Source of the DNA: Naegleria gruberi
Taxonomy: Eukaryota
NCBI GenBank assembly: GCA_000004985.1
Contig: GG738853.1
DNA length: 64,000 bases
Direction: 5' to 3' (one strand)
The number at the start of each line of letters is the position of its first letter. Within the stretch, counting starts at the first letter, position 1. The notes under the pieces are model-generated. The model saw only the letters and a program-made list of their open reading frames with translations. It made no database searches and was not told the origin of the DNA. Both the position numbers and the translations under genes were made by a program. Below are positions 15,845 through 59,700 of the stretch, one piece after another.

Positions 15845-15897
15845 ACTTTAAGAACAGACGTCTCCTTAATGTGTGAAAATTAAAAACACAAATAAAA

Positions 15898-36040: not shown

Positions 36041-36267
36041 CTATATATTTTAATTATTATTTAAATTGTTGTTGTTTGATGAACAATTAAATTATATATT
36101 GTTGTTAACACGATATATAAATATCACCAAGATCATCAATAACAAGATCCAAAACGATAAAGTACAATTAGTCATCAGTCAAATTATCATATTATCCACA
36201 ATCATCATCAAAAAATCCACACAAAAGCACCATCATCAAAAAAACCATCTAAAAAATCTTCACTTAC

Positions 36268-39262: not shown

Positions 39263-39824
39263 ACAAGCACCAATTTTTTTCAACAAGTCTTTACCACAGT
39301 AGCATAATTTGAACTAATCTTGATATCTCTTAATAATAAAAAACTTCTCTTCATGTTCCACTACAATCCCTCCTCACAAACCATCAACCTTCCAGTAGTA
39401 ACATCACAATGAAAATTAAACTGTTTATCTCAATCGACAAATTCATAGAGAATCTCTTCAACAAATTTCTCAAACTCTTTTCAAGTCCCCACCTCTCTGA
39501 GGAAAACGAGAAATTAATTTGTACATCGTGATGGCTGTTTTGGTCCGAAAAAAATCCTCACTCACAACTCTCTCTCACGCAGCACACGGAGGCAGTAGAA
39601 GACGAAGTTAGTTCTTCTTTTTTGAATTTCCCCCTTTGGTCTATTTGCCGTTACATCATCATACCCCCAAAAGACAACATCTTTTTGTTTTTTATATATA
39701 TTTAATATAACTACTCGACTACTAATACTGCTACTAGTTTGATAAGCTAAGAAGAATTGTACATTTTCTCCATAATATAATATCGTCATCTTTTAAACCC
39801 GAATAATATTTACATCATCATACA

Positions 39825-39901
39825 ATGACAACCGTTCCAAATATTGCTTCATCATCCCATAAACAACCATATAATGTTTTGGGTCTCGGACAGCCTTTAC
39901 T
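39825..39901 (+). CDS. pfkB-family kinase (adenosine-kinase-like), exon 1
   Basis: ATG at 39825. Translation is MTTVPNIASSSHKQPYNVLGLGQPL followed by CT, with a GTAAGT donor at 39902. Confidence 0.6.
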
Positions 39902-40010
39902 GTAAGTATTAATACTTTGCAAAGTAGTAGAATGAATTTGTGGTTTATTTCAATGCCATATCATGATATGTTATTATACAATGGCAACAATAACATTATT
40001 AAAATCAAAG

Positions 40011-41454: not shown

Positions 41455-41535
41455 TTTCCTCCAACAAAAATTAATTATTAAATAAAATAAAAAGTAAATA
41501 ATTTAAATTCAAATGTAAATCACAATTTAAAAAAA

Positions 41536-41781
41536 ATGATACCAGTCAATAACAGCTTTTTGCAAAAGCTCATCAATATGGGCATTTCCGTTCTGAAGAA
41601 GGAAGCAGCAAATAGATTGGCTGCAAATCAAAAATTTCAAGAATTTGTCCACAAGACTGAAACACAAAAAGTGAACATGACCAAACCTGAAAATATAGGG
41701 AAGGTGAAGGATTTCGGAGGACACTTTTTTACTGAATTAAAAACCATCTTGAGAGAGATGAATCCTTTTGCTAGAAAATAA
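41536..41781 (+). CDS. small hypothetical protein (81 aa)
   Basis: Real ATG after an A-run, clean 81-codon ORF in AT-rich intergenic DNA. No recognisable family. Confidence 0.25.
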   Translation: MIPVNNSFLQKLINMGISVLKKEAANRLAANQKFQEFVHKTETQKVNMTKPENIGKVKDFGGHFFTELKTILREMNPFARK

Positions 41782-42070
41782 TTATATTGTCACACAGTCA
41801 CGTAAAATTATTATCGAACGGAAATTGTTGGATGTAGTAGCATCAGTAAATTAGAAATTATTTGTCTCCTGTGATGAGAACAATAAAGTTAAATAATCGG
41901 AAGGTTGGTTTAATTAATTTGGAATGATAGATAGTTTGCACATCACTCTATCATTTTAATCTTAATATTCCTTCCACAAGTAATAATGGAAATTATAGAT
42001 TATCATATCTCATTAGTAATGTCTAATTTCTTGTTCGCAATTATCAAGCTCTTCTTGGTAATTAATCCAT

Positions 42071-42612
42071 TTAATGTGTTGCTGCTTTATTCTTGTTTTC
42101 TTTCCTCTTTCTTTTCCAAACATTGAACTTTTTCTTAATGCTGTGAATCCAATCGACGATAACTTCTGCAATTAATCCAATCATGATAGATTCAAACCCA
42201 AGTCCAATAATAGCAAAGAACATGAAGAATATCTTGCCTCCTTGAGTTGTAGGATAGAAATCACCATATCCAATTGTTGCCAAGGTCACAAAGACATACC
42301 ACGCAGATTCATTATAAGTCCATCCTTCGAGTGCCATCATAATTGCAGCACAAGTAAAGGCATAGGCCAACCAGAAAAATGTATAGTATCCTAATTGAAC
42401 TGATGAACTGAAAAGAATTCTATAAACCAAATCAGTTTTCTTCATTTTCACGTCTGTTTTCCTTATGAGTCCAACAAGTGCGTAAATTCCCATAGAAATT
42501 AACAAGAGAATGTTCTTTACAAATCCTGTAGTGGTTTTACCTACTGTTACAAGCAAGGTACCCATAATTGCAATACCAATTAATCCAAAGAAACCAATAT
42601 AAATTCTGCCAC
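42071..42612 (-). CDS. two-pore-domain K+ channel (K2P-like), exon 2 (M2, M3, pore 2, M4)
   Basis: Acceptor ..tttgacag| at 42613; the intron is 92 nt. The junction gives TIGYGDMAASTRGRIYIGFFGLIGIAIMG (compare K2P [28 protein letters not shown]). Second filter: FVTLATIGYGDFYPTT. An alternative GTATTT donor at 42700 with the aacag acceptor at 42621 gives ...STRNLTGGRIY. Confidence 0.6.
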
Positions 42613-42704
42613 CTGTCAAACTGTTAAGAATTAAATGTAAAATTAATACATACCAGCTGTTTTGTAAAATTGTCATCCCTAACTTTAAACTATGAAATAC
42701 TTAC

Positions 42705-43368
42705 GAGTTGAAGCTGCCATATCACCATAACCAATTGTAGTAAATGTCACAAGACAATAGTAAACAGAATTTCCATATGTCCACTTATCCAATCTCACCA
42801 AAGTACCATTTTCAACTAAGGTCGACCCGTTATTTCGAATTCTCTCCAAATATTCATTTCCACCTTCAATTGCCCAAATAGGCAAAGCAGAAAGCAATAA
42901 AAATCCAATAATTAAAAGCGTCATGCCAAGTAAAATTCCAACATTTGTTAAACCTTCTCGATAATGATAAGTGGCATATTTATCCTGAGCGTGATACTTT
43001 TTAAATCTTCTCTCCACAAACTCGAATGTAAAATCAGCCACTCTCAACTTTTTTTCTTTCATCTGATCTTTCAGACCATCATCTGGATCAAAATTATCAA
43101 TCACAGCTTTAAACATTGCATAATTCTCTTCATTCAATTCATAACTTTGCAAGAATTGTTTTTCTCCCAATTCTTCCTCATTCACCACACAATAATATCC
43201 ATCACTACCACCATTACCATTATCATTACCATCACCAATATTATTCTTATTCTTATTAGTATCATCATCTTCAATGGAATTTGTATTCTGATGATCCTTC
43301 AATTCAACATTCTGATCATCTTGCTGAGTTGTTGATCCATCCAACCCACCCGACATTGATCCATCCAT
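42705..43368 (-). CDS. two-pore-domain K+ channel (K2P-like), exon 1 (N-rich cytosolic N-terminus, M1, pore 1)
   Basis: First selectivity filter CLVTFTTIGYGDMAAST. The exon ends at ACT C with a GTAAGT donor at 42704. Confidence 0.6.
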
Positions 43369-43929
43369 AATTGTTTAAACTGTTTTTTCTCAATTTATCT
43401 TTTACCGAAAAATGATGAAAAAAAACCTCAGTAAGCCAGAGTTTGATGTTTTTCTATTTTTTTTGGTTTGTTGAGAGCGGGAATCTAAAGCTGAGTTTGT
43501 GGGATTTTGAAGAGTTTCGGAAGCAATTCAATTGGTTGAGTAGAAGGGTTGGTTCCTTGGCAGTGATTCGTTTTGCATGTTCATGGGGTGATTTTAGTTT
43601 ACAATGTTTTTTATCCGCTATTAATTAGGAAAAGTCCGAAATGTTTGCTGATTTCTGTTCTCTAATTTTGTAAAATGTCTACAGTAAAAGCTTCAAAATA
43701 CAGGTTTTGATTCGTCCTAAGTGAAATTAATAATTAGTTTCGAATTTTGTTACAATAATTCCTATTACTTATTAGAAATAATTCAATGCTGTGTTCGGTT
43801 TTTAATCGGAAATATTTTTGACGGAAACTGTATTTTAATCAAGTTAACACACTTAATAACGGAAAGAGAAAAGTTTCGAACGATTTCGAATAACAAACCA
43901 CATATTCCACCAACATTGGTATTGCTAGT

Positions 43930-45357
43930 ATGTTGCTATACTGTAGCTTGTTACATCTCTTGCAAAGATCATCACAATATTTCCCACAAATATTTAATAT
44001 TTTAAAATGGGAATCAAAAGAAGCAAGTGGTCACCTTGAAAGGTATTCGAATTGTAAAAACCACCAATTTAAACCAATAAAAAAAAACAATGCCTCCAAA
44101 CAAACAACTTGTCAGCTTCTTGCTGTACTACTCTTGGTTTCGCTCTTTAATTTTTCCCTTTTCACAGCAGGAGCAGCAACGCAAAGTTCAATGGTCAATT
44201 TACCAATTTCTTCATCATTGACATTGTCAACTACACCATTTCTTCACAATCATTATAAGAATCGTCATTCACTTGTAATTACATTGGAAGAACAAGTTAA
44301 TGCTTTAATCCAAAATGAAAAGATTATTCATCTTCCTGCATCAATTTTTCAATTCGCCACAGATGGCAATTTTTGGCAGACATATGGTAATTTGGTTATT
44401 GTGATTATTGTACTTTCAGTGTTTATTCTGTTTTTGGTATGTCTTGTGCTGCCAATGATTTTGAGTTGTGGTGCCTTGTGGATTTTTAAATGTTGCCTTC
44501 ATTCGGCTAATTTAGGACCTCGTGAAGAGAGTGAACTAATTGACCAACAGTATTCACGTCTTGCGCAGGTTACTCTTGATCCAGGATGGAAAACTCGTGT
44601 CAGGTATAGACTATTCGATGTCAATTTTACAGATTGTGCTATTTTAATATTTTGGTTATTGTTTTGGCCATTTAGAAAACTTAGTTGTGGAATATTTGAC
44701 AGTTGTTTCATATTGAGAATGACAAGATTCAATGTAAGAAGAATGAGGGTTGGAAACAGAAGGTTGGATTTGCATATTTCAGACGCATGTTGCACCATCC
44801 CATTCATTCACTTTTTAAATAATTTTTGTAATTTTTACACGTTTGGATTGTGGAGAGCACTTGGACTCTATCATCGATTCTATCTTTCAAGAATTGATGA
44901 AAGAATTTATTGGAAACCAATCGAAAATGATGGAAGATATGAATCACAAGTAGTGTGGCAAAACTTTTCAGAAAAAAACTCATTCAGATGGTTTAGTATT
45001 TATTGTGGTTTGTATACAGAATTGCTGTATTGGTTTTTGAAAGTTATCAATGTTTTCGCTTTATTCCTCCTTGGACCATTCATTGAGGCATGGTATATAA
45101 GAAAACGAGTTCAGTATTCCAAATTTGGTGGAGTTGGATCATTTGCAGTGTACAGTAATGGATCTTTACAAGCATTGGTTGCGAATTCTCCAAAGGTTTT
45201 GACCCTGTCCAATTCAATCAGTGGATGTTCCTATTTTACAAGAATTTTAATTTATAGATTGTTGAATTTAATTACTCTGGGAATATTTGGATGCGTTGTT
45301 GGTGGAGATCGATATTTTCTTGGATTTATCGATGAGCATTTGTATCTATCAATGTAA
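43930..45357 (+). CDS. hypothetical aromatic- and Cys-rich multi-pass membrane protein; start uncertain (ATG at 43930 or 44191)
   Basis: A 475-codon ORF is statistically unlikely by chance in AT-rich DNA. Several hydrophobic helices are visible (NLVIVIIVLSVFILFLVCLVLPMILS; FALFLLGPFIEAWYI). No family recognised. Confidence 0.3.
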   Translation: MLLYCSLLHLLQRSSQYFPQIFNILKWESKEASGHLERYSNCKNHQFKPIKKNNASKQTTCQLLAVLLLVSLFNFSLFTAGAATQSSMVNLPISSSLTLSTTPFLHNHYKNRHSLVITLEEQVNALIQNEKIIHLPASIFQFATDGNFWQTYGNLVIVIIVLSVFILFLVCLVLPMILSCGALWIFKCCLHSANLGPREESELIDQQYSRLAQVTLDPGWKTRVRYRLFDVNFTDCAILIFWLLFWPFRKLSCGIFDSCFILRMTRFNVRRMRVGNRRLDLHISDACCTIPFIHFLNNFCNFYTFGLWRALGLYHRFYLSRIDERIYWKPIENDGRYESQVVWQNFSEKNSFRWFSIYCGLYTELLYWFLKVINVFALFLLGPFIEAWYIRKRVQYSKFGGVGSFAVYSNGSLQALVANSPKVLTLSNSISGCSYFTRILIYRLLNLITLGIFGCVVGGDRYFLGFIDEHLYLSM

Positions 45358-45553
45358 TTAGTATTTCAAAGGTTACTTGGAATACGAAACTATCCTAAAC
45401 TACCTTTTATTGTAACTGATAAATCAATTAGCAATATAGAATAGTTAGGGAGGAATTCTTCTGGAGCAGTTATGGAGCTTGATTATTGGTCAAGAAGAGC
45501 TTGAACCATTTATAAAACCTTTCAATTCACTGGAGTGTTGGATCATTACGAAT

Positions 45554-46681
45554 TCAGAATGTTATGAATGAAAGATCGTAAAATGTTGAATTACTCAATT
45601 GACGTCTAAGTAGTGAAAAGAAAAATATTTCTTCTGGAGATTTAGCAACTGTGAAAGTTTTTCTATAGATATAGCCATGCCAAGGACCACATACAATAAT
45701 TTCCTGTTCATCATTAATTGCTTCTTGTGGAATTTGAGCAATACAAAAATGAGTATCCGTTTTTACACCAGTTGACACACTAGTACAGTACACATCTTTG
45801 AATGGCCCCTCAATTTGAATACGTTGAAATTCTTTTACTGGACCAGACGCTCCAACCGATAATCCACATTGATTACTAGAATTTAGACCTCGACAGAATA
45901 TTTGGCCATCTTCCAATAGTAGAGCAATGTGAGCAAATCCTGTATCAATCTTTTTGATTTCACAAGTGAACGATAATTTAAGCTCTTTCGTTTGGTACGC
46001 GTTTCCTTCGTTCATAAATCCAAATCCAATATTTCTAATGAACAATCTATTGTTTTTTAAGAGAATGAATTGGGCTGTACCATTTGAGCAACAAGAAAAT
46101 TGTTTCACTTGGTAATCAGGAAGTGGGAATCCGATGTCGAATGCTTCAGTATCAACTTCTTTTTCATAAATAGTTCCATCAATTGTCTGAACTAACCAAC
46201 AGGTTGACATGATTCCACTTCCAACACAATGAATTAATGAACTGTGCGAGATAAAGAATTTGTTCATTTTCAATGCTTGAGTATCGAATTCAAACAAAGA
46301 TCCGTCCATCATTTCAAATAATATGAATCTTGCATTATTTGAAACAACTCTCTTCATCAATTGACCTCTTTTACAGTTGCTCAACTCGGGTAACAGTGAA
46401 CTAAACTTCATTTTCTCTCCCATTATCACAAAATATTCACTCTCCTCTCCTTCAAACAGAAACATTGAATAATTAGGGGCTTGATTACTTCCACCACAAC
46501 AAATATACGAAACTCGTATTAATTCATTTGCTTCAATCTCGGAAGGAGAAAAATTATTTTCTGGATGAGGAAATATTAAAGGCCTAATTTCCACAACATC
46601 CCATTCGTATTCAATCCCATCTGTCCACACTTTAGAGTCATTAAATTTTGTGTGGGATTTCATTCCGAAGGCTTTGATCAT
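45554..46681 (-). CDS. hypothetical protein with possible RCC1-like repeats
   Basis: 375 aa with a real [30 protein letters not shown] resembles the RCC1 repeat signature (H.AL..DG.V...G.N..GQLG). Confidence 0.4.
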
Positions 46682-46755
46682 TTTTTTTGTTTTTGTTAAT
46701 TAAAGAGTTAATAAATTTTTGGCGCCAAAATTTTGAAAAAATCAATACAGAAAAA

Positions 46756-47342
46756 ATGGCTCAAAAGATGAAAGAGTGTTTGAGGGAACCTCAGTTGAGC
46801 ACAACTGATCAACAATTTGGTGAGCAAGGCTTTGAAAGGTTTGATGTAGAGTTTTTTGGTGAGAATGAAGTTTCGGAGAGGGCTTTTGAGGAATTATTCG
46901 AAGATGATTTGGATATGAGTGAGAATAATTCAATGATTTCTTCATTCCCTGTATCCGATCAGCACCAAGAAGATGAGAAAGGAAAGCAAGCCATTGCAGA
47001 AGAAGAACAGCAAGAACCATTGGAAACAAGAAGGCATGGAGAGATTGTCACTCAACCAAAGAATAATCAGATCGGGTTAAAGACAAGGTTATTATATGCT
47101 CAGAAGGCTCCTAGAAAATCTATCAAACAATTTCCTCAGAAGGCCCCAAAGAAATCAATTAATTGCAGAGGGAAACCTGTGAAGAAGCCTCGAAAGTGGA
47201 AGAAAGGTACAGTAGCTTTGAGAGAAATCAAAAAGTATCAGAAAGGAGTCGAATTGTTAATTCCTAAAGCTAATTTTGTTAGGCTTGTGAGAGAAATTGC
47301 AAACTCTAAGAGACAAGATGATCCTCTCAGATTCAGTGCAGA
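46756..47342 (+). CDS. cenH3: centromeric histone H3 variant (CenH3/CENP-A-like), exon 1: ~150-aa divergent N-terminal tail plus alphaN, alpha1 and loop 1
   Basis: [52 protein letters not shown] aligns to H3 [50 protein letters not shown], with a 2-residue longer loop 1. The track start at 46687 is not an ATG; the first ATG is at 46756. A GTAAGT donor follows at 47343, phase 2. Confidence 0.7.
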
Positions 47343-47385
47343 GTAAGTTTCTAATTATTATAATATCCTATAATGAGTTATGAAG

Positions 47386-47455
47386 TGCCTTGTTAGCTCT
47401 GCAAGAAGCTGCAGAACATTACCTTGTAAATTTGCTTGAGGACTCTTATTTGTGT
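47386..47455 (+). CDS. cenH3: CenH3-like histone, exon 2 (alpha2)
   Basis: Acceptor ..ttatgaag| at 47385. Translation is DALLALQEAAEHYLVNLLEDSYLC (compare H3 [24 protein letters not shown]). A GTAAGT donor follows at 47456. Confidence 0.7.
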
Positions 47456-47503
47456 GTAAGTTTTTCTAAATTATTAAAATAATTTCTTAATGATCCTTCT
47501 TAG

Positions 47504-47575
47504 GCTCTTCATGCAGGTAGAGTAACATTGATGAAAAAAGATATTCAACTCATAAAAAGATTATTGGGCTTGTAG
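47504..47575 (+). CDS. cenH3: CenH3-like histone, exon 3 (alpha3, stop)
   Basis: Acceptor ..ccttcttag| at 47503. Translation is ALHAGRVTLMKKDIQLIKRLLGL* (compare H3 [25 protein letters not shown]). Confidence 0.7.
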   Translation, partial: ALHAGRVTLMKKDIQLIKRLLGL

Positions 47576-47576
47576 T

Positions 47577-48941
47577 TTACTTTCTGGATGAAAGACAAAC
47601 AAGACCATAATCGCCACTATATCTCCAATTGCTGACAGTTTCCTTGACGCTATTAAACTTTTCCATATCCTTAATACCAATCAGTGAGTAACTCTTAATT
47701 GTTCTCAAACTGCAAATACCATTCTTGGCAGGGAAATATTGCAAAGTTTGATTAAAATCTTGTTCGATTGGCAATTTGGCATCATTGATTGTTCTTCTAT
47801 AGTTTGCATCTCCCTTGATGAAAATAAATTCAAAGTCATTTCTCAATTCATTGGCCAAATCTTGTGGTATTTGGGTATATTCGAGTGGAGAAGTAAAGAA
47901 GGTATGCTTTTTGAATTTCCATTGTTGATTATCAATATATTGAGAGAATCGCTTGCCATATTCACCAATAATACCTTCATGATCTACGAATCGTGAGATA
48001 GTTTGTTGGAAATCTCTTTCAGTAACATCACTCACAAAGACTGGTTGATATTTACCAAAGAATGTAACACTGTCAATAAAGTCCAATCTCAATAAGGTAT
48101 CAGCCATGAACATGTCACTCACAAGTTCTAAACCAACATTATCAAGAATGATGGCCAAATGTCTTGTTCCCTTCTCCTTCAATTTGATATTGTCCAAAAT
48201 TTTAACAACCTCTGTCAAATCATTTGACAAGATATTTTCCTCTAAACTCTTCTTAAACTTTTCGGTATGATTTTGAAGTCCAGTTGACAAGCTTAAATCG
48301 GCTTGATTTCCCCACAAACTCAATACAATACTTTCTCTCACAAGACTCAATATCTTATCTCCTTCGGTTGGCAATTCACTCAACAGCTCACAAAATTGTT
48401 GAGCGACAGTCTTTTCAGACTTGGAGTTAAAAACAACATCTAAAGACTTTTTCTTTTGATTACCGAAAGGATCCCATCTCAACAATGGTGAATCAGCTTT
48501 CCAAAATTCAGTAATATCCAAAATCAATCTATAAAAGTAATTCTCCACGAAGAACCAAGTCATTTCCAACCAATTTTTATCCTCAACACCAAACATCTTT
48601 TCATATTTGGCCCAATTTTCCAAATCAGCCCTCACATTCTCATCATCAACAGCTTGATCAGCCTTTAGAGAAATTCTCAACTTGGTACAAACATCTCCTT
48701 CAACTAATTCCTCTTCCAATGCTTTTAACTTGTGCAATATTTCGGGATGTTGTTGTAGTAACTGTTCCTCCTTGTTGGATTCAATCATGGATTGAAGAAT
48801 CTTTGGCAAACGTTCAATGATGGAAATGTAGGTAAAACCTCCATCCATGCCGATCAATGGTTTCCCATCATCATTATGATTTTCCCATGAGAGTAGATGT
48901 TCACGATCGGAAGGTGAAAGACGATGTTGTTGTGTTGCCAT
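47577..48941 (-). CDS. ARMT1: ARMT1/C6orf211-like damage-control phosphatase (DUF89 family)
   Basis: 454 aa with a real ATG. Co-linear matches to human ARMT1: GGFTYISIIERLPKIL / GSFAYLTIKDRIPQIL; WFFVENYFYRLI / WLLVECYMYRRI; LSLWGNQADLSLS / ISLWGNKCDLSLS; DNVGLELVSDMFMAD / DNSGFELVTDLILAD; FFGKYQPVFVSDVT / FYGKTIPWFVSDTT; FIKGDANYRR / LFKGDLNYRK. Confidence 0.75.
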   Translation of the reverse strand: MATQQHRLSPSDREHLLSWENHNDDGKPLIGMDGGFTYISIIERLPKILQSMIESNKEEQLLQQHPEILHKLKALEEELVEGDVCTKLRISLKADQAVDDENVRADLENWAKYEKMFGVEDKNWLEMTWFFVENYFYRLILDITEFWKADSPLLRWDPFGNQKKKSLDVVFNSKSEKTVAQQFCELLSELPTEGDKILSLVRESIVLSLWGNQADLSLSTGLQNHTEKFKKSLEENILSNDLTEVVKILDNIKLKEKGTRHLAIILDNVGLELVSDMFMADTLLRLDFIDSVTFFGKYQPVFVSDVTERDFQQTISRFVDHEGIIGEYGKRFSQYIDNQQWKFKKHTFFTSPLEYTQIPQDLANELRNDFEFIFIKGDANYRRTINDAKLPIEQDFNQTLQYFPAKNGICSLRTIKSYSLIGIKDMEKFNSVKETVSNWRYSGDYGLVCLSSRK

Positions 48942-48996
48942 TTTTTTTGTATTATTTTAATATTTAAATAGTTAATATTTATAAATATATTTAATA

Positions 48997-49575
48997 TTAA
49001 TTTTTGGATAAAATCTTCACTGGTCGATTATTCTCCTTCTTTCTTGGACACGCATATCGTGTAACAATCTTAAATTCATGAGTAAATTCCTTCTTAAAAG
49101 TCTTTTTACTCGTTCCAATGTAAAATCCCTTAAATTCTGAATCCTCATCACAAACCAGGAAACATTTGGCTCCATGTAATTCACCTGCCAAACTCACAAA
49201 CATATCAAATTCAACAATGACTCCATTTTGAATATGTTTAGGATCGAAAAGTGAAATTCTGGGTCCAGGTTTTCCAATACCAAAACATCGATCAAAATAA
49301 TTGTCAATGAAAGCAATTTGAAATTGTCCTTGATTGGTGGTGGCATAGCATGAGGCATTGGTGGAAGTTACTGGCTTACACAAATTAAGCATGTAATAAT
49401 TTCCTGGCAAGTGAAGAGTGTCAATAATTTTGTGGCCAGTGGTGCCATTGTCAGCTTTGGAAAAATCAATGATCATTCCATCCTTTTCAATGAAACAATT
49501 CTGAGAGAAGACAGTTGTGGAGATGAAGATGAGTAATATGCAGAAAGAACAGATGAATAAGTGTGAGAAATGCAT
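48997..49575 (-). CDS. secretory-pathway protein with a mannose-6-phosphate-receptor-homology (MRH)-like domain (Atg27/M6PR-like); tentative
   Basis: 192 aa with a real ATG. The N-terminus is a signal peptide (MHFSHLFICSFCILLIFISTTVFS). The Cys spacing and YYMLNLCKPV...C...QGQFQIAFID...FG...GP......GVIVEF...C.LVCDED...RYAC pattern resemble MRH domains. Basic C-terminal tail. Confidence 0.35.
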   Translation of the reverse strand: MHFSHLFICSFCILLIFISTTVFSQNCFIEKDGMIIDFSKADNGTTGHKIIDTLHLPGNYYMLNLCKPVTSTNASCYATTNQGQFQIAFIDNYFDRCFGIGKPGPRISLFDPKHIQNGVIVEFDMFVSLAGELHGAKCFLVCDEDSEFKGFYIGTSKKTFKKEFTHEFKIVTRYACPRKKENNRPVKILSKN

Positions 49576-50046
49576 GCTTTTTTTTTCAGTTTTTGAGTAT
49601 GAGATCCATGGATCTGCTGAAACGTTCGCTTCTTTCGAATGTAATTGCTACTTGCCAAATTTAAAAGATTTTGGATTCAATGGACGAGCTGCATTAGAAA
49701 GTTTACCAATCATATTATAATCAATGTAAATAATTGATTACAATGAGTAATTGGTTGCAGTTAGAAAGAGAATAAGTTTTTGAGTTTCATCTTGATGGAC
49801 TTTTTCTTTTTGAAAAGCTGGTTATGGGACATACTTGTGACTTTCGAACAGGAGAAAATATGAGGTTGTGATGGTGTTAACACTAACTGTTCCAATGTTG
49901 TTGAATTTCTATTCTTTTTGAATAAATTCAGTTTAGACGAAGATCTATTCGAAACATTGGGCGAGAAGAAATCCATTCCCTTACTCGTTCCAATTCTCAA
50001 TTTCAAAATAATATCCATTAAATTTGAAATATCTTTTGCAATATTT

Positions 50047-50106
50047 TGATCTTTGGNNNNNNNNNNNNNNNNNNNNNNNNNNNNNNNNNNNNNNNNNNNN
50101 NNNNNN
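50047..50106. other. assembly gap (60 N)
   Basis: Run of n. Confidence 1.
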
Positions 50107-50760
50107 GGATTTGTATTGACTATTTCATTGGCTGGTTATTCCATTTTTTGCATTATCTTTGTGGAAGATAATTTCCAAAATTAGTAATTTTTATAAATAT
50201 TAAATTTGTGATTCTTAATATTTAATAATATAATTAAGAACCAATGATGGTTGCATATTTTCATGAGCTGAATTTCCACCAACTTCATTGGTTGTGAAAT
50301 TGTGAGTATGATTGGCTCCTGTAAAATTATCGTCATCCTTATGAGTAGCTGGACCTCCACACCATCCTGGAGTATGGAAAACATCAGAAATTGGTCCAGA
50401 TTGATGAACTATAATGTAAGGTTGTTTGTTGGCTTTTCCAGTGGTTCCTGAGTGTGAATGACTTGGTAGTTCACTAATTTGCAATTGGTGAGATTCTTCT
50501 CCAACTTTTTGAGCTAGAGTTCTATTGGAAAGTCCAGCTCCGTGACCAATTCCAACAACTGCTCTTCCCCTGAGGTCGGGAACATTGAATGAGTGAGGTC
50601 CTCCTGTACTTCCATATGCATTTCCAATAGTTTGAAACAATCGAATATAATCTGGATGACTATTCGGATAGGTGGCTCCATCACACAATAACCAACCTGC
50701 TGGTATAGTTGTTCCAGCAAATGCATTCACAATACCAACAGGAATTATAATTTGAGATTC
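50107..50760. repeat. gap-flanked 654-bp contig that is a ~99% identical second copy of 2686..3360 (MAPEG 3' end, 30-bp spacer, and most of the tail-collar CDS)
   Basis: Direct comparison shows only 3 substitutions, all in the first ~130 bp (2722 a/c, 2749 t/g, 2798 a/g equivalents). The collar-coding part is identical. Gaps bound the segment on both sides. Confidence 0.85.
50215..50730 (-). CDS. tail-collar-domain protein, second copy (5' end lost in the gap)
   Basis: The 171-aa translation is identical to residues 28-198 of the 2794..3390 ORF. Confidence 0.5.
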   Translation of the reverse strand: MNAFAGTTIPAGWLLCDGATYPNSHPDYIRLFQTIGNAYGSTGGPHSFNVPDLRGRAVVGIGHGAGLSNRTLAQKVGEESHQLQISELPSHSHSGTTGKANKQPYIIVHQSGPISDVFHTPGWCGGPATHKDDDNFTGANHTHNFTTNEVGGNSAHENMQPSLVLNYIIKY

Positions 50761-53700
50761 NNNNNNNNNNNNNNNNNNNNNNNNNNNNNNNNNNNNNNNN
50801 NNNNNNNNNNNNNNNNNNNNNNNNNNNNNNNNNNNNNNNNNNNNNNNNNNNNNNNNNNNNNNNNNNNNNNNNNNNNNNNNNNNNNNNNNNNNNNNNNNNN
50901 NNNNNNNNNNNNNNNNNNNNNNNNNNNNNNNNNNNNNNNNNNNNNNNNNNNNNNNNNNNNNNNNNNNNNNNNNNNNNNNNNNNNNNNNNNNNNNNNNNNN
51001 NNNNNNNNNNNNNNNNNNNNNNNNNNNNNNNNNNNNNNNNNNNNNNNNNNNNNNNNNNNNNNNNNNNNNNNNNNNNNNNNNNNNNNNNNNNNNNNNNNNN
51101 NNNNNNNNNNNNNNNNNNNNNNNNNNNNNNNNNNNNNNNNNNNNNNNNNNNNNNNNNNNNNNNNNNNNNNNNNNNNNNNNNNNNNNNNNNNNNNNNNNNN
51201 NNNNNNNNNNNNNNNNNNNNNNNNNNNNNNNNNNNNNNNNNNNNNNNNNNNNNNNNNNNNNNNNNNNNNNNNNNNNNNNNNNNNNNNNNNNNNNNNNNNN
51301 NNNNNNNNNNNNNNNNNNNNNNNNNNNNNNNNNNNNNNNNNNNNNNNNNNNNNNNNNNNNNNNNNNNNNNNNNNNNNNNNNNNNNNNNNNNNNNNNNNNN
51401 NNNNNNNNNNNNNNNNNNNNNNNNNNNNNNNNNNNNNNNNNNNNNNNNNNNNNNNNNNNNNNNNNNNNNNNNNNNNNNNNNNNNNNNNNNNNNNNNNNNN
51501 NNNNNNNNNNNNNNNNNNNNNNNNNNNNNNNNNNNNNNNNNNNNNNNNNNNNNNNNNNNNNNNNNNNNNNNNNNNNNNNNNNNNNNNNNNNNNNNNNNNN
51601 NNNNNNNNNNNNNNNNNNNNNNNNNNNNNNNNNNNNNNNNNNNNNNNNNNNNNNNNNNNNNNNNNNNNNNNNNNNNNNNNNNNNNNNNNNNNNNNNNNNN
51701 NNNNNNNNNNNNNNNNNNNNNNNNNNNNNNNNNNNNNNNNNNNNNNNNNNNNNNNNNNNNNNNNNNNNNNNNNNNNNNNNNNNNNNNNNNNNNNNNNNNN
51801 NNNNNNNNNNNNNNNNNNNNNNNNNNNNNNNNNNNNNNNNNNNNNNNNNNNNNNNNNNNNNNNNNNNNNNNNNNNNNNNNNNNNNNNNNNNNNNNNNNNN
51901 NNNNNNNNNNNNNNNNNNNNNNNNNNNNNNNNNNNNNNNNNNNNNNNNNNNNNNNNNNNNNNNNNNNNNNNNNNNNNNNNNNNNNNNNNNNNNNNNNNNN
52001 NNNNNNNNNNNNNNNNNNNNNNNNNNNNNNNNNNNNNNNNNNNNNNNNNNNNNNNNNNNNNNNNNNNNNNNNNNNNNNNNNNNNNNNNNNNNNNNNNNNN
52101 NNNNNNNNNNNNNNNNNNNNNNNNNNNNNNNNNNNNNNNNNNNNNNNNNNNNNNNNNNNNNNNNNNNNNNNNNNNNNNNNNNNNNNNNNNNNNNNNNNNN
52201 NNNNNNNNNNNNNNNNNNNNNNNNNNNNNNNNNNNNNNNNNNNNNNNNNNNNNNNNNNNNNNNNNNNNNNNNNNNNNNNNNNNNNNNNNNNNNNNNNNNN
52301 NNNNNNNNNNNNNNNNNNNNNNNNNNNNNNNNNNNNNNNNNNNNNNNNNNNNNNNNNNNNNNNNNNNNNNNNNNNNNNNNNNNNNNNNNNNNNNNNNNNN
52401 NNNNNNNNNNNNNNNNNNNNNNNNNNNNNNNNNNNNNNNNNNNNNNNNNNNNNNNNNNNNNNNNNNNNNNNNNNNNNNNNNNNNNNNNNNNNNNNNNNNN
52501 NNNNNNNNNNNNNNNNNNNNNNNNNNNNNNNNNNNNNNNNNNNNNNNNNNNNNNNNNNNNNNNNNNNNNNNNNNNNNNNNNNNNNNNNNNNNNNNNNNNN
52601 NNNNNNNNNNNNNNNNNNNNNNNNNNNNNNNNNNNNNNNNNNNNNNNNNNNNNNNNNNNNNNNNNNNNNNNNNNNNNNNNNNNNNNNNNNNNNNNNNNNN
52701 NNNNNNNNNNNNNNNNNNNNNNNNNNNNNNNNNNNNNNNNNNNNNNNNNNNNNNNNNNNNNNNNNNNNNNNNNNNNNNNNNNNNNNNNNNNNNNNNNNNN
52801 NNNNNNNNNNNNNNNNNNNNNNNNNNNNNNNNNNNNNNNNNNNNNNNNNNNNNNNNNNNNNNNNNNNNNNNNNNNNNNNNNNNNNNNNNNNNNNNNNNNN
52901 NNNNNNNNNNNNNNNNNNNNNNNNNNNNNNNNNNNNNNNNNNNNNNNNNNNNNNNNNNNNNNNNNNNNNNNNNNNNNNNNNNNNNNNNNNNNNNNNNNNN
53001 NNNNNNNNNNNNNNNNNNNNNNNNNNNNNNNNNNNNNNNNNNNNNNNNNNNNNNNNNNNNNNNNNNNNNNNNNNNNNNNNNNNNNNNNNNNNNNNNNNNN
53101 NNNNNNNNNNNNNNNNNNNNNNNNNNNNNNNNNNNNNNNNNNNNNNNNNNNNNNNNNNNNNNNNNNNNNNNNNNNNNNNNNNNNNNNNNNNNNNNNNNNN
53201 NNNNNNNNNNNNNNNNNNNNNNNNNNNNNNNNNNNNNNNNNNNNNNNNNNNNNNNNNNNNNNNNNNNNNNNNNNNNNNNNNNNNNNNNNNNNNNNNNNNN
53301 NNNNNNNNNNNNNNNNNNNNNNNNNNNNNNNNNNNNNNNNNNNNNNNNNNNNNNNNNNNNNNNNNNNNNNNNNNNNNNNNNNNNNNNNNNNNNNNNNNNN
53401 NNNNNNNNNNNNNNNNNNNNNNNNNNNNNNNNNNNNNNNNNNNNNNNNNNNNNNNNNNNNNNNNNNNNNNNNNNNNNNNNNNNNNNNNNNNNNNNNNNNN
53501 NNNNNNNNNNNNNNNNNNNNNNNNNNNNNNNNNNNNNNNNNNNNNNNNNNNNNNNNNNNNNNNNNNNNNNNNNNNNNNNNNNNNNNNNNNNNNNNNNNNN
53601 NNNNNNNNNNNNNNNNNNNNNNNNNNNNNNNNNNNNNNNNNNNNNNNNNNNNNNNNNNNNNNNNNNNNNNNNNNNNNNNNNNNNNNNNNNNNNNNNNNNN

Positions 53701-56700
53701 NNNNNNNNNNNNNNNNNNNNNNNNNNNNNNNNNNNNNNNNNNNNNNNNNNNNNNNNNNNNNNNNNNNNNNNNNNNNNNNNNNNNNNNNNNNNNNNNNNNN
53801 NNNNNNNNNNNNNNNNNNNNNNNNNNNNNNNNNNNNNNNNNNNNNNNNNNNNNNNNNNNNNNNNNNNNNNNNNNNNNNNNNNNNNNNNNNNNNNNNNNNN
53901 NNNNNNNNNNNNNNNNNNNNNNNNNNNNNNNNNNNNNNNNNNNNNNNNNNNNNNNNNNNNNNNNNNNNNNNNNNNNNNNNNNNNNNNNNNNNNNNNNNNN
54001 NNNNNNNNNNNNNNNNNNNNNNNNNNNNNNNNNNNNNNNNNNNNNNNNNNNNNNNNNNNNNNNNNNNNNNNNNNNNNNNNNNNNNNNNNNNNNNNNNNNN
54101 NNNNNNNNNNNNNNNNNNNNNNNNNNNNNNNNNNNNNNNNNNNNNNNNNNNNNNNNNNNNNNNNNNNNNNNNNNNNNNNNNNNNNNNNNNNNNNNNNNNN
54201 NNNNNNNNNNNNNNNNNNNNNNNNNNNNNNNNNNNNNNNNNNNNNNNNNNNNNNNNNNNNNNNNNNNNNNNNNNNNNNNNNNNNNNNNNNNNNNNNNNNN
54301 NNNNNNNNNNNNNNNNNNNNNNNNNNNNNNNNNNNNNNNNNNNNNNNNNNNNNNNNNNNNNNNNNNNNNNNNNNNNNNNNNNNNNNNNNNNNNNNNNNNN
54401 NNNNNNNNNNNNNNNNNNNNNNNNNNNNNNNNNNNNNNNNNNNNNNNNNNNNNNNNNNNNNNNNNNNNNNNNNNNNNNNNNNNNNNNNNNNNNNNNNNNN
54501 NNNNNNNNNNNNNNNNNNNNNNNNNNNNNNNNNNNNNNNNNNNNNNNNNNNNNNNNNNNNNNNNNNNNNNNNNNNNNNNNNNNNNNNNNNNNNNNNNNNN
54601 NNNNNNNNNNNNNNNNNNNNNNNNNNNNNNNNNNNNNNNNNNNNNNNNNNNNNNNNNNNNNNNNNNNNNNNNNNNNNNNNNNNNNNNNNNNNNNNNNNNN
54701 NNNNNNNNNNNNNNNNNNNNNNNNNNNNNNNNNNNNNNNNNNNNNNNNNNNNNNNNNNNNNNNNNNNNNNNNNNNNNNNNNNNNNNNNNNNNNNNNNNNN
54801 NNNNNNNNNNNNNNNNNNNNNNNNNNNNNNNNNNNNNNNNNNNNNNNNNNNNNNNNNNNNNNNNNNNNNNNNNNNNNNNNNNNNNNNNNNNNNNNNNNNN
54901 NNNNNNNNNNNNNNNNNNNNNNNNNNNNNNNNNNNNNNNNNNNNNNNNNNNNNNNNNNNNNNNNNNNNNNNNNNNNNNNNNNNNNNNNNNNNNNNNNNNN
55001 NNNNNNNNNNNNNNNNNNNNNNNNNNNNNNNNNNNNNNNNNNNNNNNNNNNNNNNNNNNNNNNNNNNNNNNNNNNNNNNNNNNNNNNNNNNNNNNNNNNN
55101 NNNNNNNNNNNNNNNNNNNNNNNNNNNNNNNNNNNNNNNNNNNNNNNNNNNNNNNNNNNNNNNNNNNNNNNNNNNNNNNNNNNNNNNNNNNNNNNNNNNN
55201 NNNNNNNNNNNNNNNNNNNNNNNNNNNNNNNNNNNNNNNNNNNNNNNNNNNNNNNNNNNNNNNNNNNNNNNNNNNNNNNNNNNNNNNNNNNNNNNNNNNN
55301 NNNNNNNNNNNNNNNNNNNNNNNNNNNNNNNNNNNNNNNNNNNNNNNNNNNNNNNNNNNNNNNNNNNNNNNNNNNNNNNNNNNNNNNNNNNNNNNNNNNN
55401 NNNNNNNNNNNNNNNNNNNNNNNNNNNNNNNNNNNNNNNNNNNNNNNNNNNNNNNNNNNNNNNNNNNNNNNNNNNNNNNNNNNNNNNNNNNNNNNNNNNN
55501 NNNNNNNNNNNNNNNNNNNNNNNNNNNNNNNNNNNNNNNNNNNNNNNNNNNNNNNNNNNNNNNNNNNNNNNNNNNNNNNNNNNNNNNNNNNNNNNNNNNN
55601 NNNNNNNNNNNNNNNNNNNNNNNNNNNNNNNNNNNNNNNNNNNNNNNNNNNNNNNNNNNNNNNNNNNNNNNNNNNNNNNNNNNNNNNNNNNNNNNNNNNN
55701 NNNNNNNNNNNNNNNNNNNNNNNNNNNNNNNNNNNNNNNNNNNNNNNNNNNNNNNNNNNNNNNNNNNNNNNNNNNNNNNNNNNNNNNNNNNNNNNNNNNN
55801 NNNNNNNNNNNNNNNNNNNNNNNNNNNNNNNNNNNNNNNNNNNNNNNNNNNNNNNNNNNNNNNNNNNNNNNNNNNNNNNNNNNNNNNNNNNNNNNNNNNN
55901 NNNNNNNNNNNNNNNNNNNNNNNNNNNNNNNNNNNNNNNNNNNNNNNNNNNNNNNNNNNNNNNNNNNNNNNNNNNNNNNNNNNNNNNNNNNNNNNNNNNN
56001 NNNNNNNNNNNNNNNNNNNNNNNNNNNNNNNNNNNNNNNNNNNNNNNNNNNNNNNNNNNNNNNNNNNNNNNNNNNNNNNNNNNNNNNNNNNNNNNNNNNN
56101 NNNNNNNNNNNNNNNNNNNNNNNNNNNNNNNNNNNNNNNNNNNNNNNNNNNNNNNNNNNNNNNNNNNNNNNNNNNNNNNNNNNNNNNNNNNNNNNNNNNN
56201 NNNNNNNNNNNNNNNNNNNNNNNNNNNNNNNNNNNNNNNNNNNNNNNNNNNNNNNNNNNNNNNNNNNNNNNNNNNNNNNNNNNNNNNNNNNNNNNNNNNN
56301 NNNNNNNNNNNNNNNNNNNNNNNNNNNNNNNNNNNNNNNNNNNNNNNNNNNNNNNNNNNNNNNNNNNNNNNNNNNNNNNNNNNNNNNNNNNNNNNNNNNN
56401 NNNNNNNNNNNNNNNNNNNNNNNNNNNNNNNNNNNNNNNNNNNNNNNNNNNNNNNNNNNNNNNNNNNNNNNNNNNNNNNNNNNNNNNNNNNNNNNNNNNN
56501 NNNNNNNNNNNNNNNNNNNNNNNNNNNNNNNNNNNNNNNNNNNNNNNNNNNNNNNNNNNNNNNNNNNNNNNNNNNNNNNNNNNNNNNNNNNNNNNNNNNN
56601 NNNNNNNNNNNNNNNNNNNNNNNNNNNNNNNNNNNNNNNNNNNNNNNNNNNNNNNNNNNNNNNNNNNNNNNNNNNNNNNNNNNNNNNNNNNNNNNNNNNN

Positions 56701-59700
56701 NNNNNNNNNNNNNNNNNNNNNNNNNNNNNNNNNNNNNNNNNNNNNNNNNNNNNNNNNNNNNNNNNNNNNNNNNNNNNNNNNNNNNNNNNNNNNNNNNNNN
56801 NNNNNNNNNNNNNNNNNNNNNNNNNNNNNNNNNNNNNNNNNNNNNNNNNNNNNNNNNNNNNNNNNNNNNNNNNNNNNNNNNNNNNNNNNNNNNNNNNNNN
56901 NNNNNNNNNNNNNNNNNNNNNNNNNNNNNNNNNNNNNNNNNNNNNNNNNNNNNNNNNNNNNNNNNNNNNNNNNNNNNNNNNNNNNNNNNNNNNNNNNNNN
57001 NNNNNNNNNNNNNNNNNNNNNNNNNNNNNNNNNNNNNNNNNNNNNNNNNNNNNNNNNNNNNNNNNNNNNNNNNNNNNNNNNNNNNNNNNNNNNNNNNNNN
57101 NNNNNNNNNNNNNNNNNNNNNNNNNNNNNNNNNNNNNNNNNNNNNNNNNNNNNNNNNNNNNNNNNNNNNNNNNNNNNNNNNNNNNNNNNNNNNNNNNNNN
57201 NNNNNNNNNNNNNNNNNNNNNNNNNNNNNNNNNNNNNNNNNNNNNNNNNNNNNNNNNNNNNNNNNNNNNNNNNNNNNNNNNNNNNNNNNNNNNNNNNNNN
57301 NNNNNNNNNNNNNNNNNNNNNNNNNNNNNNNNNNNNNNNNNNNNNNNNNNNNNNNNNNNNNNNNNNNNNNNNNNNNNNNNNNNNNNNNNNNNNNNNNNNN
57401 NNNNNNNNNNNNNNNNNNNNNNNNNNNNNNNNNNNNNNNNNNNNNNNNNNNNNNNNNNNNNNNNNNNNNNNNNNNNNNNNNNNNNNNNNNNNNNNNNNNN
57501 NNNNNNNNNNNNNNNNNNNNNNNNNNNNNNNNNNNNNNNNNNNNNNNNNNNNNNNNNNNNNNNNNNNNNNNNNNNNNNNNNNNNNNNNNNNNNNNNNNNN
57601 NNNNNNNNNNNNNNNNNNNNNNNNNNNNNNNNNNNNNNNNNNNNNNNNNNNNNNNNNNNNNNNNNNNNNNNNNNNNNNNNNNNNNNNNNNNNNNNNNNNN
57701 NNNNNNNNNNNNNNNNNNNNNNNNNNNNNNNNNNNNNNNNNNNNNNNNNNNNNNNNNNNNNNNNNNNNNNNNNNNNNNNNNNNNNNNNNNNNNNNNNNNN
57801 NNNNNNNNNNNNNNNNNNNNNNNNNNNNNNNNNNNNNNNNNNNNNNNNNNNNNNNNNNNNNNNNNNNNNNNNNNNNNNNNNNNNNNNNNNNNNNNNNNNN
57901 NNNNNNNNNNNNNNNNNNNNNNNNNNNNNNNNNNNNNNNNNNNNNNNNNNNNNNNNNNNNNNNNNNNNNNNNNNNNNNNNNNNNNNNNNNNNNNNNNNNN
58001 NNNNNNNNNNNNNNNNNNNNNNNNNNNNNNNNNNNNNNNNNNNNNNNNNNNNNNNNNNNNNNNNNNNNNNNNNNNNNNNNNNNNNNNNNNNNNNNNNNNN
58101 NNNNNNNNNNNNNNNNNNNNNNNNNNNNNNNNNNNNNNNNNNNNNNNNNNNNNNNNNNNNNNNNNNNNNNNNNNNNNNNNNNNNNNNNNNNNNNNNNNNN
58201 NNNNNNNNNNNNNNNNNNNNNNNNNNNNNNNNNNNNNNNNNNNNNNNNNNNNNNNNNNNNNNNNNNNNNNNNNNNNNNNNNNNNNNNNNNNNNNNNNNNN
58301 NNNNNNNNNNNNNNNNNNNNNNNNNNNNNNNNNNNNNNNNNNNNNNNNNNNNNNNNNNNNNNNNNNNNNNNNNNNNNNNNNNNNNNNNNNNNNNNNNNNN
58401 NNNNNNNNNNNNNNNNNNNNNNNNNNNNNNNNNNNNNNNNNNNNNNNNNNNNNNNNNNNNNNNNNNNNNNNNNNNNNNNNNNNNNNNNNNNNNNNNNNNN
58501 NNNNNNNNNNNNNNNNNNNNNNNNNNNNNNNNNNNNNNNNNNNNNNNNNNNNNNNNNNNNNNNNNNNNNNNNNNNNNNNNNNNNNNNNNNNNNNNNNNNN
58601 NNNNNNNNNNNNNNNNNNNNNNNNNNNNNNNNNNNNNNNNNNNNNNNNNNNNNNNNNNNNNNNNNNNNNNNNNNNNNNNNNNNNNNNNNNNNNNNNNNNN
58701 NNNNNNNNNNNNNNNNNNNNNNNNNNNNNNNNNNNNNNNNNNNNNNNNNNNNNNNNNNNNNNNNNNNNNNNNNNNNNNNNNNNNNNNNNNNNNNNNNNNN
58801 NNNNNNNNNNNNNNNNNNNNNNNNNNNNNNNNNNNNNNNNNNNNNNNNNNNNNNNNNNNNNNNNNNNNNNNNNNNNNNNNNNNNNNNNNNNNNNNNNNNN
58901 NNNNNNNNNNNNNNNNNNNNNNNNNNNNNNNNNNNNNNNNNNNNNNNNNNNNNNNNNNNNNNNNNNNNNNNNNNNNNNNNNNNNNNNNNNNNNNNNNNNN
59001 NNNNNNNNNNNNNNNNNNNNNNNNNNNNNNNNNNNNNNNNNNNNNNNNNNNNNNNNNNNNNNNNNNNNNNNNNNNNNNNNNNNNNNNNNNNNNNNNNNNN
59101 NNNNNNNNNNNNNNNNNNNNNNNNNNNNNNNNNNNNNNNNNNNNNNNNNNNNNNNNNNNNNNNNNNNNNNNNNNNNNNNNNNNNNNNNNNNNNNNNNNNN
59201 NNNNNNNNNNNNNNNNNNNNNNNNNNNNNNNNNNNNNNNNNNNNNNNNNNNNNNNNNNNNNNNNNNNNNNNNNNNNNNNNNNNNNNNNNNNNNNNNNNNN
59301 NNNNNNNNNNNNNNNNNNNNNNNNNNNNNNNNNNNNNNNNNNNNNNNNNNNNNNNNNNNNNNNNNNNNNNNNNNNNNNNNNNNNNNNNNNNNNNNNNNNN
59401 NNNNNNNNNNNNNNNNNNNNNNNNNNNNNNNNNNNNNNNNNNNNNNNNNNNNNNNNNNNNNNNNNNNNNNNNNNNNNNNNNNNNNNNNNNNNNNNNNNNN
59501 NNNNNNNNNNNNNNNNNNNNNNNNNNNNNNNNNNNNNNNNNNNNNNNNNNNNNNNNNNNNNNNNNNNNNNNNNNNNNNNNNNNNNNNNNNNNNNNNNNNN
59601 NNNNNNNNNNNNNNNNNNNNNNNNNNNNNNNNNNNNNNNNNNNNNNNNNNNNNNNNNNNNNNNNNNNNNNNNNNNNNNNNNNNNNNNNNNNNNNNNNNNN

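What the first reader, a model, noticed from the sequence alone, without database searches (positions are those of the whole stretch)
50107..50760. Gap-flanked 654-bp island duplicating the MAPEG-3'/tail-collar locus
The island is bounded by N runs on both sides and equals 2686..3360. It has 3 substitutions in its first ~130 bp (MAPEG 3' end and spacer) and none in ~520 bp of collar CDS. This pattern fits an uncollapsed allele (haplotig), a mis-scaffolded contig, or a recent segmental duplication with purifying selection or gene conversion on the collar gene. In either case the collar gene exists in at least two copies or alleles.
Basis: seen in the sequence. Interest (0 to 1): 0.5.

Follow-up and report, generated by a model that had tools for sequence, protein, structure and literature searches.

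The report
Redundant short contig in Naegleria scaffold gap
A 654-base piece sitting between two gaps in the draft Naegleria gruberi genome is a near-identical second rendering of a stretch 47 kb upstream, most likely assembly redundancy rather than a demonstrated gene duplication, so it is ordinary.

Summary
Window 50107..50760 (654 bp) matches 2686..3339, not 3360, without gaps. There are 3 substitutions, at island offsets 36, 55 and 104. It is the only long-range repeat in the window.

The window is Naegleria gruberi NEG-M, from a 695,587-bp scaffold of the published draft assembly. The island holds three things:
- the last 26 codons of a MAPEG gene;
- the 30-bp spacer between the two converging stop codons;
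- the complete exon 2 of the annotated phage-tail-collar gene XP_002680548.1, plus one more base.

It carries no sequence of its own. A 50-N gap lies on its left, and an N run of at least 13,240 on its right reaches the window end.

My best reading (about 0.55) is a redundant contig for the same locus. It would be the other allele of a heterozygous strain, or a single stray read, parked in a scaffold gap. A real recent local duplication (about 0.3) cannot be excluded without reads.

The inference of purifying selection or gene conversion rests on three sites and is not supported. The collar parts are identical, so two collar alleles are not shown either.

One oddity remains: the island ends exactly at the annotated splice acceptor. 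Interest is low.

The parts
50057..50106 (.). Left gap, exactly 50 N, between the 50-kb contig and the island. The round length suggests a placeholder or minimum gap (inference).
50107..50760 (+). The island: a 654-bp contig, 651/654 identical to 2686..3339 in the same orientation, with no unique sequence at either end.
50107..50184 (+). Copy of the last 25 codons plus stop of the MAPEG gene. It carries 2 of the 3 substitutions: 50142 C (synonymous Ser) and 50161 G (Leu to Val).
50185..50214 (.). Copy of the 30-bp spacer between the convergent stop codons. It carries the third substitution (50210 G vs 2789 A).
50215..50759 (-). Copy of the complete exon 2 of the collar gene (stop codon up to the first exon-2 base), 545/545 identical to 2794..3338.
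50760..50760 (-). Last island base. On the minus strand it is a G. That G equals the G of the intron's AG acceptor in the parent locus, and also the last base of exon 1, so it does not discriminate a genomic copy from a spliced one.
50761..64000 (.). N run of 13,240 that reaches the window end. It is either a large scaffold gap or padding after the scaffold end; undetermined.
   Evidence: (no access to the scaffold beyond the window)
2686..3339 (+). Parent counterpart of the island, inside the contiguous 50,056-bp contig.
2176..2763 (+). MAPEG-family ORF (195 aa; PF01124 at 3.4e-10, 40.6 bits vs cut-off 23.4). Its last 78 bp are in the repeat.
2794..3338 (-). Collar gene exon 2 (XP_002680548.1 / EFC47804.1 / D2V5I7, 'microcystin-dependent protein'). 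Pfam Collar PF07484 at 1.9e-17. Weak match to the T4 gp12 short tail fibre (PDB 5iv5, 3.7e-5).
3339..3627 (-). Annotated intron of the collar gene (289 nt, GTGAGT...GTTTAG). Its 3' part (3339..3396) is still an open continuation of the exon-2 frame. Its translation (LNLNDLLQRIARL) aligns with the N-terminal helix of bacterial homologues.
3628..3658 (-). Collar gene exon 1 (31 nt, MELGFAFQLT + G). Exon 1 plus exon 2 translate exactly to the annotated 191-aa protein.

Best explanation
The island is a redundant mini-contig of the draft N. gruberi NEG-M assembly. It represents the same locus as 2686..3339, not a separate biological element.

One read, or a very few reads, differed from the main contig at three close positions. 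The differences arose either because the reads come from the other allele of this heterozygous strain, or because they are base-calling errors in a read tail. These reads were not merged into the 50-kb contig.

The scaffolder then parked the resulting read-length contig in the nearest open gap of the same scaffold, behind a placeholder gap of 50 N.

The clustering of the mismatches at one end, and the mismatch-free collar part, follow from how such a contig is ascertained. It exists only because of the variant cluster, and it extends one read length beyond it. Selection is not needed.

Shown here: the sequence identity, the boundaries, the lack of unique flanks, the organism and the gene content. 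Inferred: the single-read origin, the parking in a gap, and the choice between allele and error.
For: 1. The whole island, from first to last base, matches the parent. It has no unique flanking base and is isolated by N on both sides.
2. The last 300 bp of the left contig show no similarity to the parent's flanks beyond random expectation: scores 22 to 29, against a random mean of 21 and maximum of 34. So no duplication junction is visible.
3. The length of 654 bp is that of one trimmed Sanger read. That the assembly is a JGI Sanger shotgun assembly is my own knowledge. PMC6125883 Table 1 gives 1977 contigs in 784 scaffolds.
4. The island extends only 35 bp beyond the variant cluster on one side and 550 bp on the other. 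That is what one read would give; several reads would extend both ways (inference).
5. Divergence is 0.46%, with substitutions only and no indels. N. gruberi NEG-M is reported to be heterozygous (Fritz-Laylin 2010 as cited in PMC9928731).
6. The twin lies only 47.4 kb away on the same scaffold. By my own estimate, a random placement in a 41-Mb genome would land within 50 kb about 0.2% of the time. So the island's read(s) are physically tied to this region, as expected for a redundant copy whose mate lies nearby.
7. No second collar protein of N. gruberi appears among the 888 homologues found, of which the best 120 were listed. The next best hit is 40% identical, and the 90% cluster of the annotated protein has one member.
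Against: - For an allelic read from 2686..3339, no normal clone-mate geometry places it 47 kb away in the same orientation. Expected distances are about 3, 8 or 40 kb (my reasoning; library sizes from memory). A placement supported by mates would instead favour a real second locus.
- Local direct duplications are common, and a nearly identical second copy would be collapsed by a Sanger assembler. That would leave exactly this kind of gap next to a short diverged piece.
- The island's right end coincides to the base with the annotated splice acceptor. The redundancy model can only call this a coincidence. I estimate the chance at about 1%, judged post hoc.
- No read-level data could be examined.
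Confidence: 0.55

Rival explanations
1. This is a real, recent, local segmental duplication in direct orientation, about 47 kb apart. The second copy was mostly collapsed into the first by the assembler, which left the gap. Only the reads carrying the three distinguishing substitutions survived as a separate contig, correctly placed by mate pairs.
For: - The island has the same orientation and lies on the same scaffold, next to a gap of at least 13 kb.
- Placement 47 kb from the twin is hard to obtain from the mates of an allelic read (my reasoning).
- The ascertainment argument explains the mismatch clustering equally well here.
Against: - No junction is seen. The left contig ends in unrelated sequence and is not joined to the island, even though any junction within a true 50-bp gap should have been spanned by reads at normal shotgun coverage (inference).
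- The island contains no unique base.
- No second gene model or protein exists.
- The assembly's repeat content is low, at 5.1% (PMC6125883).
Confidence: 0.3
2. The three differences are Sanger base-calling errors in the 3' tail of a single stray read. The read's mate was wrong (chimeric clone or lane-tracking error) or ambiguous. There is then one copy and one allele, and the island is pure artefact. This is a sub-case of the best explanation, listed separately because it makes a distinct prediction.
For: - The island is of read length (654 bp).
- If the read is reverse-oriented, the mismatches fall at read positions 551, 600 and 619 of 654, where Sanger quality decays (inference).
- The other 550 bp are perfect.
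Against: - All three differences are clean substitutions with no indel or ambiguous base. One is synonymous and one is a conservative Leu to Val change, which looks like natural variation.
- A random mate error would rarely land within 50 kb of the true locus.
Confidence: 0.2
3. The island is part of a processed, intron-less retrocopy of the collar mRNA, or a stray cDNA clone. It would consist of the complete exon 2 plus 108 nt of 3' UTR, which overlaps the convergent MAPEG gene end.
For: - The island's right end is exactly the exon-2 boundary plus one G. That G is shared by the intron acceptor and by the end of exon 1, so a spliced copy would align to the genome exactly this far.
- The island covers the whole of exon 2 and continues past the stop codon, as a transcript would.
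Against: - Exon 1, a poly(A) tract and target-site duplications are not seen, because both flanks are N.
- A contig built from retrocopy reads should have continued into exon 1 rather than stop at the junction.
- The two MAPEG-side substitutions and the spacer substitution have no special explanation under this model.
- The coincidence was noticed post hoc, at about 1% by my own estimate.
Confidence: 0.04

Closest known systems
Uncollapsed allelic contig (haplotig) or redundant stray-read contig in a heterozygous Sanger draft assembly
   Same: - It is near-identical (99.5%) to a stretch of a large contig.
- It is of read length and flanked by gaps.
- It has no sequence of its own.
- The organism is reported heterozygous.
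   Different: It sits 47 kb from its counterpart, rather than directly beside it or in a separate small scaffold. Depth and allele fractions are not available.
Collapsed recent segmental duplication leaving a scaffold gap
   Same: It is a direct-orientation copy on the same scaffold, bordering a large N run. Only the part with distinguishing substitutions is assembled separately.
   Different: No junction with unique sequence is seen. Only 654 bp are observed, and no second gene model exists.
Processed retrocopy (retrogene)
   Same: The copy boundary coincides with an exon boundary. The copy comprises a whole exon plus sequence downstream of the stop codon.
   Different: Intron loss itself is not observed, because the sequence stops one base short of being informative. 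No poly(A), no exon 1 and no target-site duplication are seen.
Phage tail collar domain / 'microcystin-dependent protein' (MdpB-like) family (Pfam PF07484), with the T4 gp12 short tail fibre as solved relative. This applies to the gene carried by the repeat.
   Same: - The Collar domain scores 63.4 bits.
- Conserved motifs are present: PxGWLxCDG, FNVPDLRGR, ELPxHxH and a C-terminal MQPSLVLNYIIK.
- It is already annotated as XP_002680548.1.
   Different: - It is encoded in a eukaryotic nuclear scaffold at host-like GC (0.377 vs 0.348).
- It has an annotated spliceosomal intron and a new 10-residue first exon.
- The nearest relatives are only 40 to 46% identical, and those that carry a source name are bacterial.

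Membership tests
Haplotig / redundant allelic contig | Near-identity to a counterpart over the contig's full length | tested here: met
   651/654 identical, ungapped, end to end
Haplotig / redundant allelic contig | The sequenced strain is heterozygous at a comparable level | tested here: inconclusive
   Heterozygosity of N. gruberi is reported (Fritz-Laylin 2010 as cited in PMC9928731). I could not retrieve the rate, because the primary paper is not held. The island's divergence is 0.46%.
Haplotig / redundant allelic contig | About half-depth coverage on both versions, variant bases at about 50%, and the same flanks as the counterpart | not testable with these tools
   No reads are available, and both flanks of the island are N.
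Segmental duplication | The second copy is embedded in flanking sequence distinct from the first copy's, with a sequenced junction | tested here: not met
   The island contains no non-repeat base. The neighbouring contig end is unrelated and separated by N. This lowers the claim but does not exclude a junction hidden in the gap.
Segmental duplication | Elevated read depth over the collapsed copy, and spanning long reads | not testable with these tools
   No read data. The N. gruberi scaffold is not in the contig look-up index.
Processed retrocopy | Loss of the intron (exon 1 joined directly to exon 2) | tested here: inconclusive
   The island ends at the one base that is identical in the genomic and spliced versions. 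The next, discriminating base is N.
Processed retrocopy | A poly(A) tract at the 3' end and target-site duplications | not testable with these tools
   The position where a poly(A) would lie (left of 50107) is N.
Phage tail collar domain family (PF07484) | Match to the Collar profile above Pfam's gathering score | tested here: met
   63.4 bits vs 24, residues 26-84. 888 homologues, and all of the 120 listed carry PF07484.
MAPEG family (PF01124) | Match to the MAPEG profile above Pfam's gathering score | tested here: met
   40.6 bits vs 23.4, residues 96-183 of the 195-aa ORF

The most novel reading that the evidence does not exclude
The island is the visible tip of a genuine second locus in N. 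gruberi. It would be either a very recent local duplication that includes a laterally acquired phage-tail-collar gene, or, more exotically, a processed intron-less retrocopy of that gene. The retrocopy reading rests on the boundary falling exactly at the annotated exon-2 acceptor.
Probability: 0.33. Interest if true: 0.25.

Novelty: not a real feature. Interest (0 to 1): 0.1.

Why it matters
It matters mainly as a caution. This 654-bp piece should not be counted as a second collar or MAPEG gene, or as evidence of selection or gene conversion, until reads are examined.

If a real second copy exists, it would be a small datum on the turnover of a bacterial or phage-type gene acquired by an amoeboflagellate. 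That would be of modest, specialist interest.

The gene it carries is a tail-collar / MdpB-like protein with an annotated intron in a eukaryotic scaffold. It is the more interesting object, but it is already annotated.

Tried and rejected
1. I tried to see the scaffold beyond the N run and to get record coordinates. Exact-protein look-ups of the collar protein, the ARMT1-like protein and the NHL-EGF protein all returned 'not on record'. So I could not decide whether 50761..64000 is a true gap or padding.

2. I looked for independent N. gruberi sequence. The protein search shows only the one annotated protein at 100% identity, and no Logan or ENA copies. The cluster look-up shows single-member clusters.

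3. I scanned JGI metagenomes for close relatives of the collar gene, to see alternative genomic contexts. The only hit was a 29%-identical relative, so this was a dead end.

4. I looked for a duplication junction. Local alignment of the left contig's last 300 bp against both flanks of the parent, on both strands, gave scores within the random range.

5. I tried to retrieve the N. gruberi genome paper for assembly and heterozygosity numbers. It is not held. Searches for JAZZ or fosmid details found nothing useful.

6. I tested the selection reading. The clustering is nominally significant, but it rests on three sites and is explained by ascertainment. I rejected it as evidence of selection or gene conversion.

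7. I considered an alternative first exon or acceptor for the collar gene. The upstream ATG (on the minus strand around 3692) combined with the other AG gives an in-frame TGA, so I rejected it. The annotated model reproduces XP_002680548.1 exactly.

8. I checked whether the methylation and viral-transfer paper mentions this gene. It does not.

9. NCBIfam found nothing for either protein. There are no tRNAs in the window.

Full report
**What is in the sequence**

Real sequence occupies window 1..50056. After it come exactly 50 N (50057..50106), then 654 bases (50107..50760), then 13,240 N that run to the last base of the window.

The 654 bases align without gaps to 2686..3339, in the same orientation, at 651/654 identity (blastn 1192 bits, E = 0).

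This is the only long-range repeat in the window. The only other self-matches are internal EGF-repeat copies at 6512..6842 and a TCTTCC-type microsatellite at 33896..34033.

The three substitutions are at island offsets 36, 55 and 104:
- 2721 A to C is a synonymous Ser change in MAPEG.
- 2740 T to G changes MAPEG Leu to Val.
- 2789 A to G lies in the 30-bp spacer between the convergent stop codons.

The 545 bp of collar coding sequence are identical in the two copies.

**Where it comes from**

The collar ORF is 100% identical to XP_002680548.1 / EFC47804.1 / D2V5I7, 'microcystin-dependent protein [Naegleria gruberi strain NEG-M]'. That protein lies on a scaffold of 695,587 bp. Three other ORFs of the window are exact N. 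gruberi proteins on the same scaffold.

The published assembly has 1977 contigs in 784 scaffolds, a contig N50 of 160 kb and 5.1% repeats (PMC6125883 Table 1). From my own knowledge it is a JGI Sanger shotgun assembly. I could not retrieve the genome paper to confirm details.

N. gruberi is reported to be heterozygous (Fritz-Laylin 2010 as cited in PMC9928731).

**Gene content of the repeat**

- The ORF at 2176..2763 (+) is a MAPEG-family protein (PF01124, 40.6 bits vs cut-off 23.4).
- The ORF at 2794..3390 (-) carries a Phage Tail Collar domain (PF07484, 63.4 bits vs 24).
- The two genes converge, with 30 bp between their stop codons.
- The annotated collar model is exon 1 at 3628..3658, a 289-nt intron at 3339..3627 (GTGAGT...GTTTAG), and exon 2 at 2794..3338. 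Spliced, it translates exactly to the 191-aa annotated protein.
- A neighbouring gene in the window has an intron with the same GTGAGT...AG ends.

The island therefore contains the last 26 MAPEG codons, the spacer, the whole of collar exon 2, and one further base.

**What the island most likely is**

Several features point to a redundant mini-contig rather than a demonstrated second locus.

- It has no base of its own. The match runs from its first base to its last, and both sides are N.
- The end of the neighbouring contig is unrelated to either flank of the parent. Alignment scores fall within the random range.
- Its length is that of one trimmed Sanger read (my knowledge and inference).
- It extends 35 bp beyond the variant cluster on one side and 550 bp on the other. 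That is what a single read gives; a multi-read contig would extend both ways.
- Its divergence of 0.46%, made up of substitutions only, is compatible with allelic variation in a heterozygous strain.
- If the read is reverse-oriented, the mismatches sit at read positions 551 to 619 of 654. That is the error-prone tail.
- The twin is only 47 kb away on the same scaffold. A random placement would land that close about 0.2% of the time (my estimate). So the island's read(s) are physically linked to this region, as expected for a redundant version of the same locus parked in the nearest open gap.
- No gene model exists on the island, and no second N. gruberi collar protein was found.

**Why I do not go further than about 0.55**

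I reasoned through clone-mate geometry, using library sizes from memory. An allelic read from 2686..3339 should not be placed 47 kb away in the same orientation by a normal mate pair. A true local duplication would explain the placement naturally.

A nearly identical second copy would also be collapsed by the assembler. That would leave a gap with only the diverged piece assembled, which is what is seen.

Against the duplication, no junction is visible. Also, a true 50-bp gap should have been spanned by shotgun reads. Without reads the two explanations cannot be separated, and I give the duplication about 0.3.

**The selection or gene-conversion inference**

The three variants all falling outside the collar has P = 0.004 under uniform mutability. 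It has P of about 0.02 if only synonymous and non-coding sites are counted. Their span of 68 bp or less has P = 0.03.

This is nominally significant. However, it rests on three sites, and one of them is a non-synonymous change in the neighbouring gene. It is also fully explained by ascertainment: a separate contig survives only where reads differ from the main contig.

It is not evidence of purifying selection or gene conversion. Because the collar parts are identical, the island also does not show two collar alleles.

**An unexplained detail**

The island's last base (50760, matching 3339) is the G of the intron's AG acceptor. Exon 1 also ends in G.

The island is therefore exactly what would align to the genome if it came from a spliced copy: all of exon 2, plus 108 nt downstream of the stop codon. 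The next base would discriminate between the two origins. On the minus strand it would be A if genomic and T if spliced, but it is N.

I estimate roughly a 1% chance that either end of a contig falls within one base of some gene-structure boundary. A contig built from retrocopy reads should also have continued into exon 1. I therefore give the retrocopy or cDNA reading about 0.04, and I record it.

**The gene itself (side observation)**

- The collar protein's nearest relatives are 40 to 46% identical. They come from metagenomes or unnamed records, and the few that carry a source name are bacterial (Magnetospirillum and Thalassospira 'phage tail / tail fiber protein').
- The best one sits on a prokaryote-like contig next to a resolvase.
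- The closest solved structures are T4 gp12 short tail fibres (3.7e-5).
- No close relative was found in JGI metagenomes.
- The gene's GC content (0.377) is host-like, against 0.348 for the window.
- It has an annotated spliceosomal intron.
- The 3' part of that intron remains an open continuation of the exon-2 frame. Its translation aligns with the N-terminal helix of the bacterial homologues. This suggests a transferred gene whose original start was replaced by a new first exon, or else an imperfect gene model.
- This gene is already annotated, and it is not what the finding is about.

**Verdict**

The best explanation is assembly redundancy, which is not a biological feature. A real local duplication remains possible. 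Interest is low.

Noticed in passing
window 2794..3658 (-): A phage-tail-collar / MdpB-like gene (XP_002680548.1) sits in a eukaryotic nuclear scaffold between ordinary eukaryotic genes. Its GC content is host-like and it has an annotated intron. Its nearest relatives are only 40 to 46% identical; most are unnamed metagenome or database sequences, and the few with a source name are bacterial 'tail fiber / phage tail' proteins. No other Naegleria protein is among the best 120 hits. It looks like a lateral acquisition.
   Followed up: partly
window 3339..3396 (-), inside the annotated intron: The exon-2 reading frame stays open for 19 codons upstream of the annotated acceptor. The translation (FDLTNELNLNDLLQRIARL) aligns with the N-terminal helix of bacterial homologues (LNAKELNRRFKQL and similar). 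There is no in-frame ATG there. Either the ancestral N-terminus became intronic when a new first exon was recruited, or the gene model is imperfect.
   Followed up: partly
window 50760 / 3339: The island ends exactly at the annotated exon-2 acceptor. Its last base is shared by the genomic and the spliced versions of the gene, so an intron-less copy cannot be excluded or shown.
   Followed up: partly
window 2761..2796: The MAPEG and collar genes converge with only 30 bp between their stop codons, so their 3' UTRs must overlap on opposite strands.
   Followed up: no
window 50761..64000: An N run of 13,240 reaches the window end. It is either an unusually large scaffold gap or padding after the scaffold end.
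   Followed up: partly
window 4170..7094 (+), repeats at 6512..6842: A 974-aa intron-less protein with teneurin-like NHL repeats followed by EGF repeats and a C-terminal hydrophobic segment (D2V5I8). The EGF part contains a 120-bp tandem repeat of 2.6 copies at 84% identity.
   Followed up: no
window 33896..34033: An imperfect TCTTCC / TCTTCTTCC microsatellite array of about 138 bp.
   Followed up: no
L003 195..2079; L001 1867..3837: In related prokaryote-like contigs, collar-domain genes occur as two adjacent 267-aa genes (L003), and next to a resolvase gene (L001).
   Followed up: no
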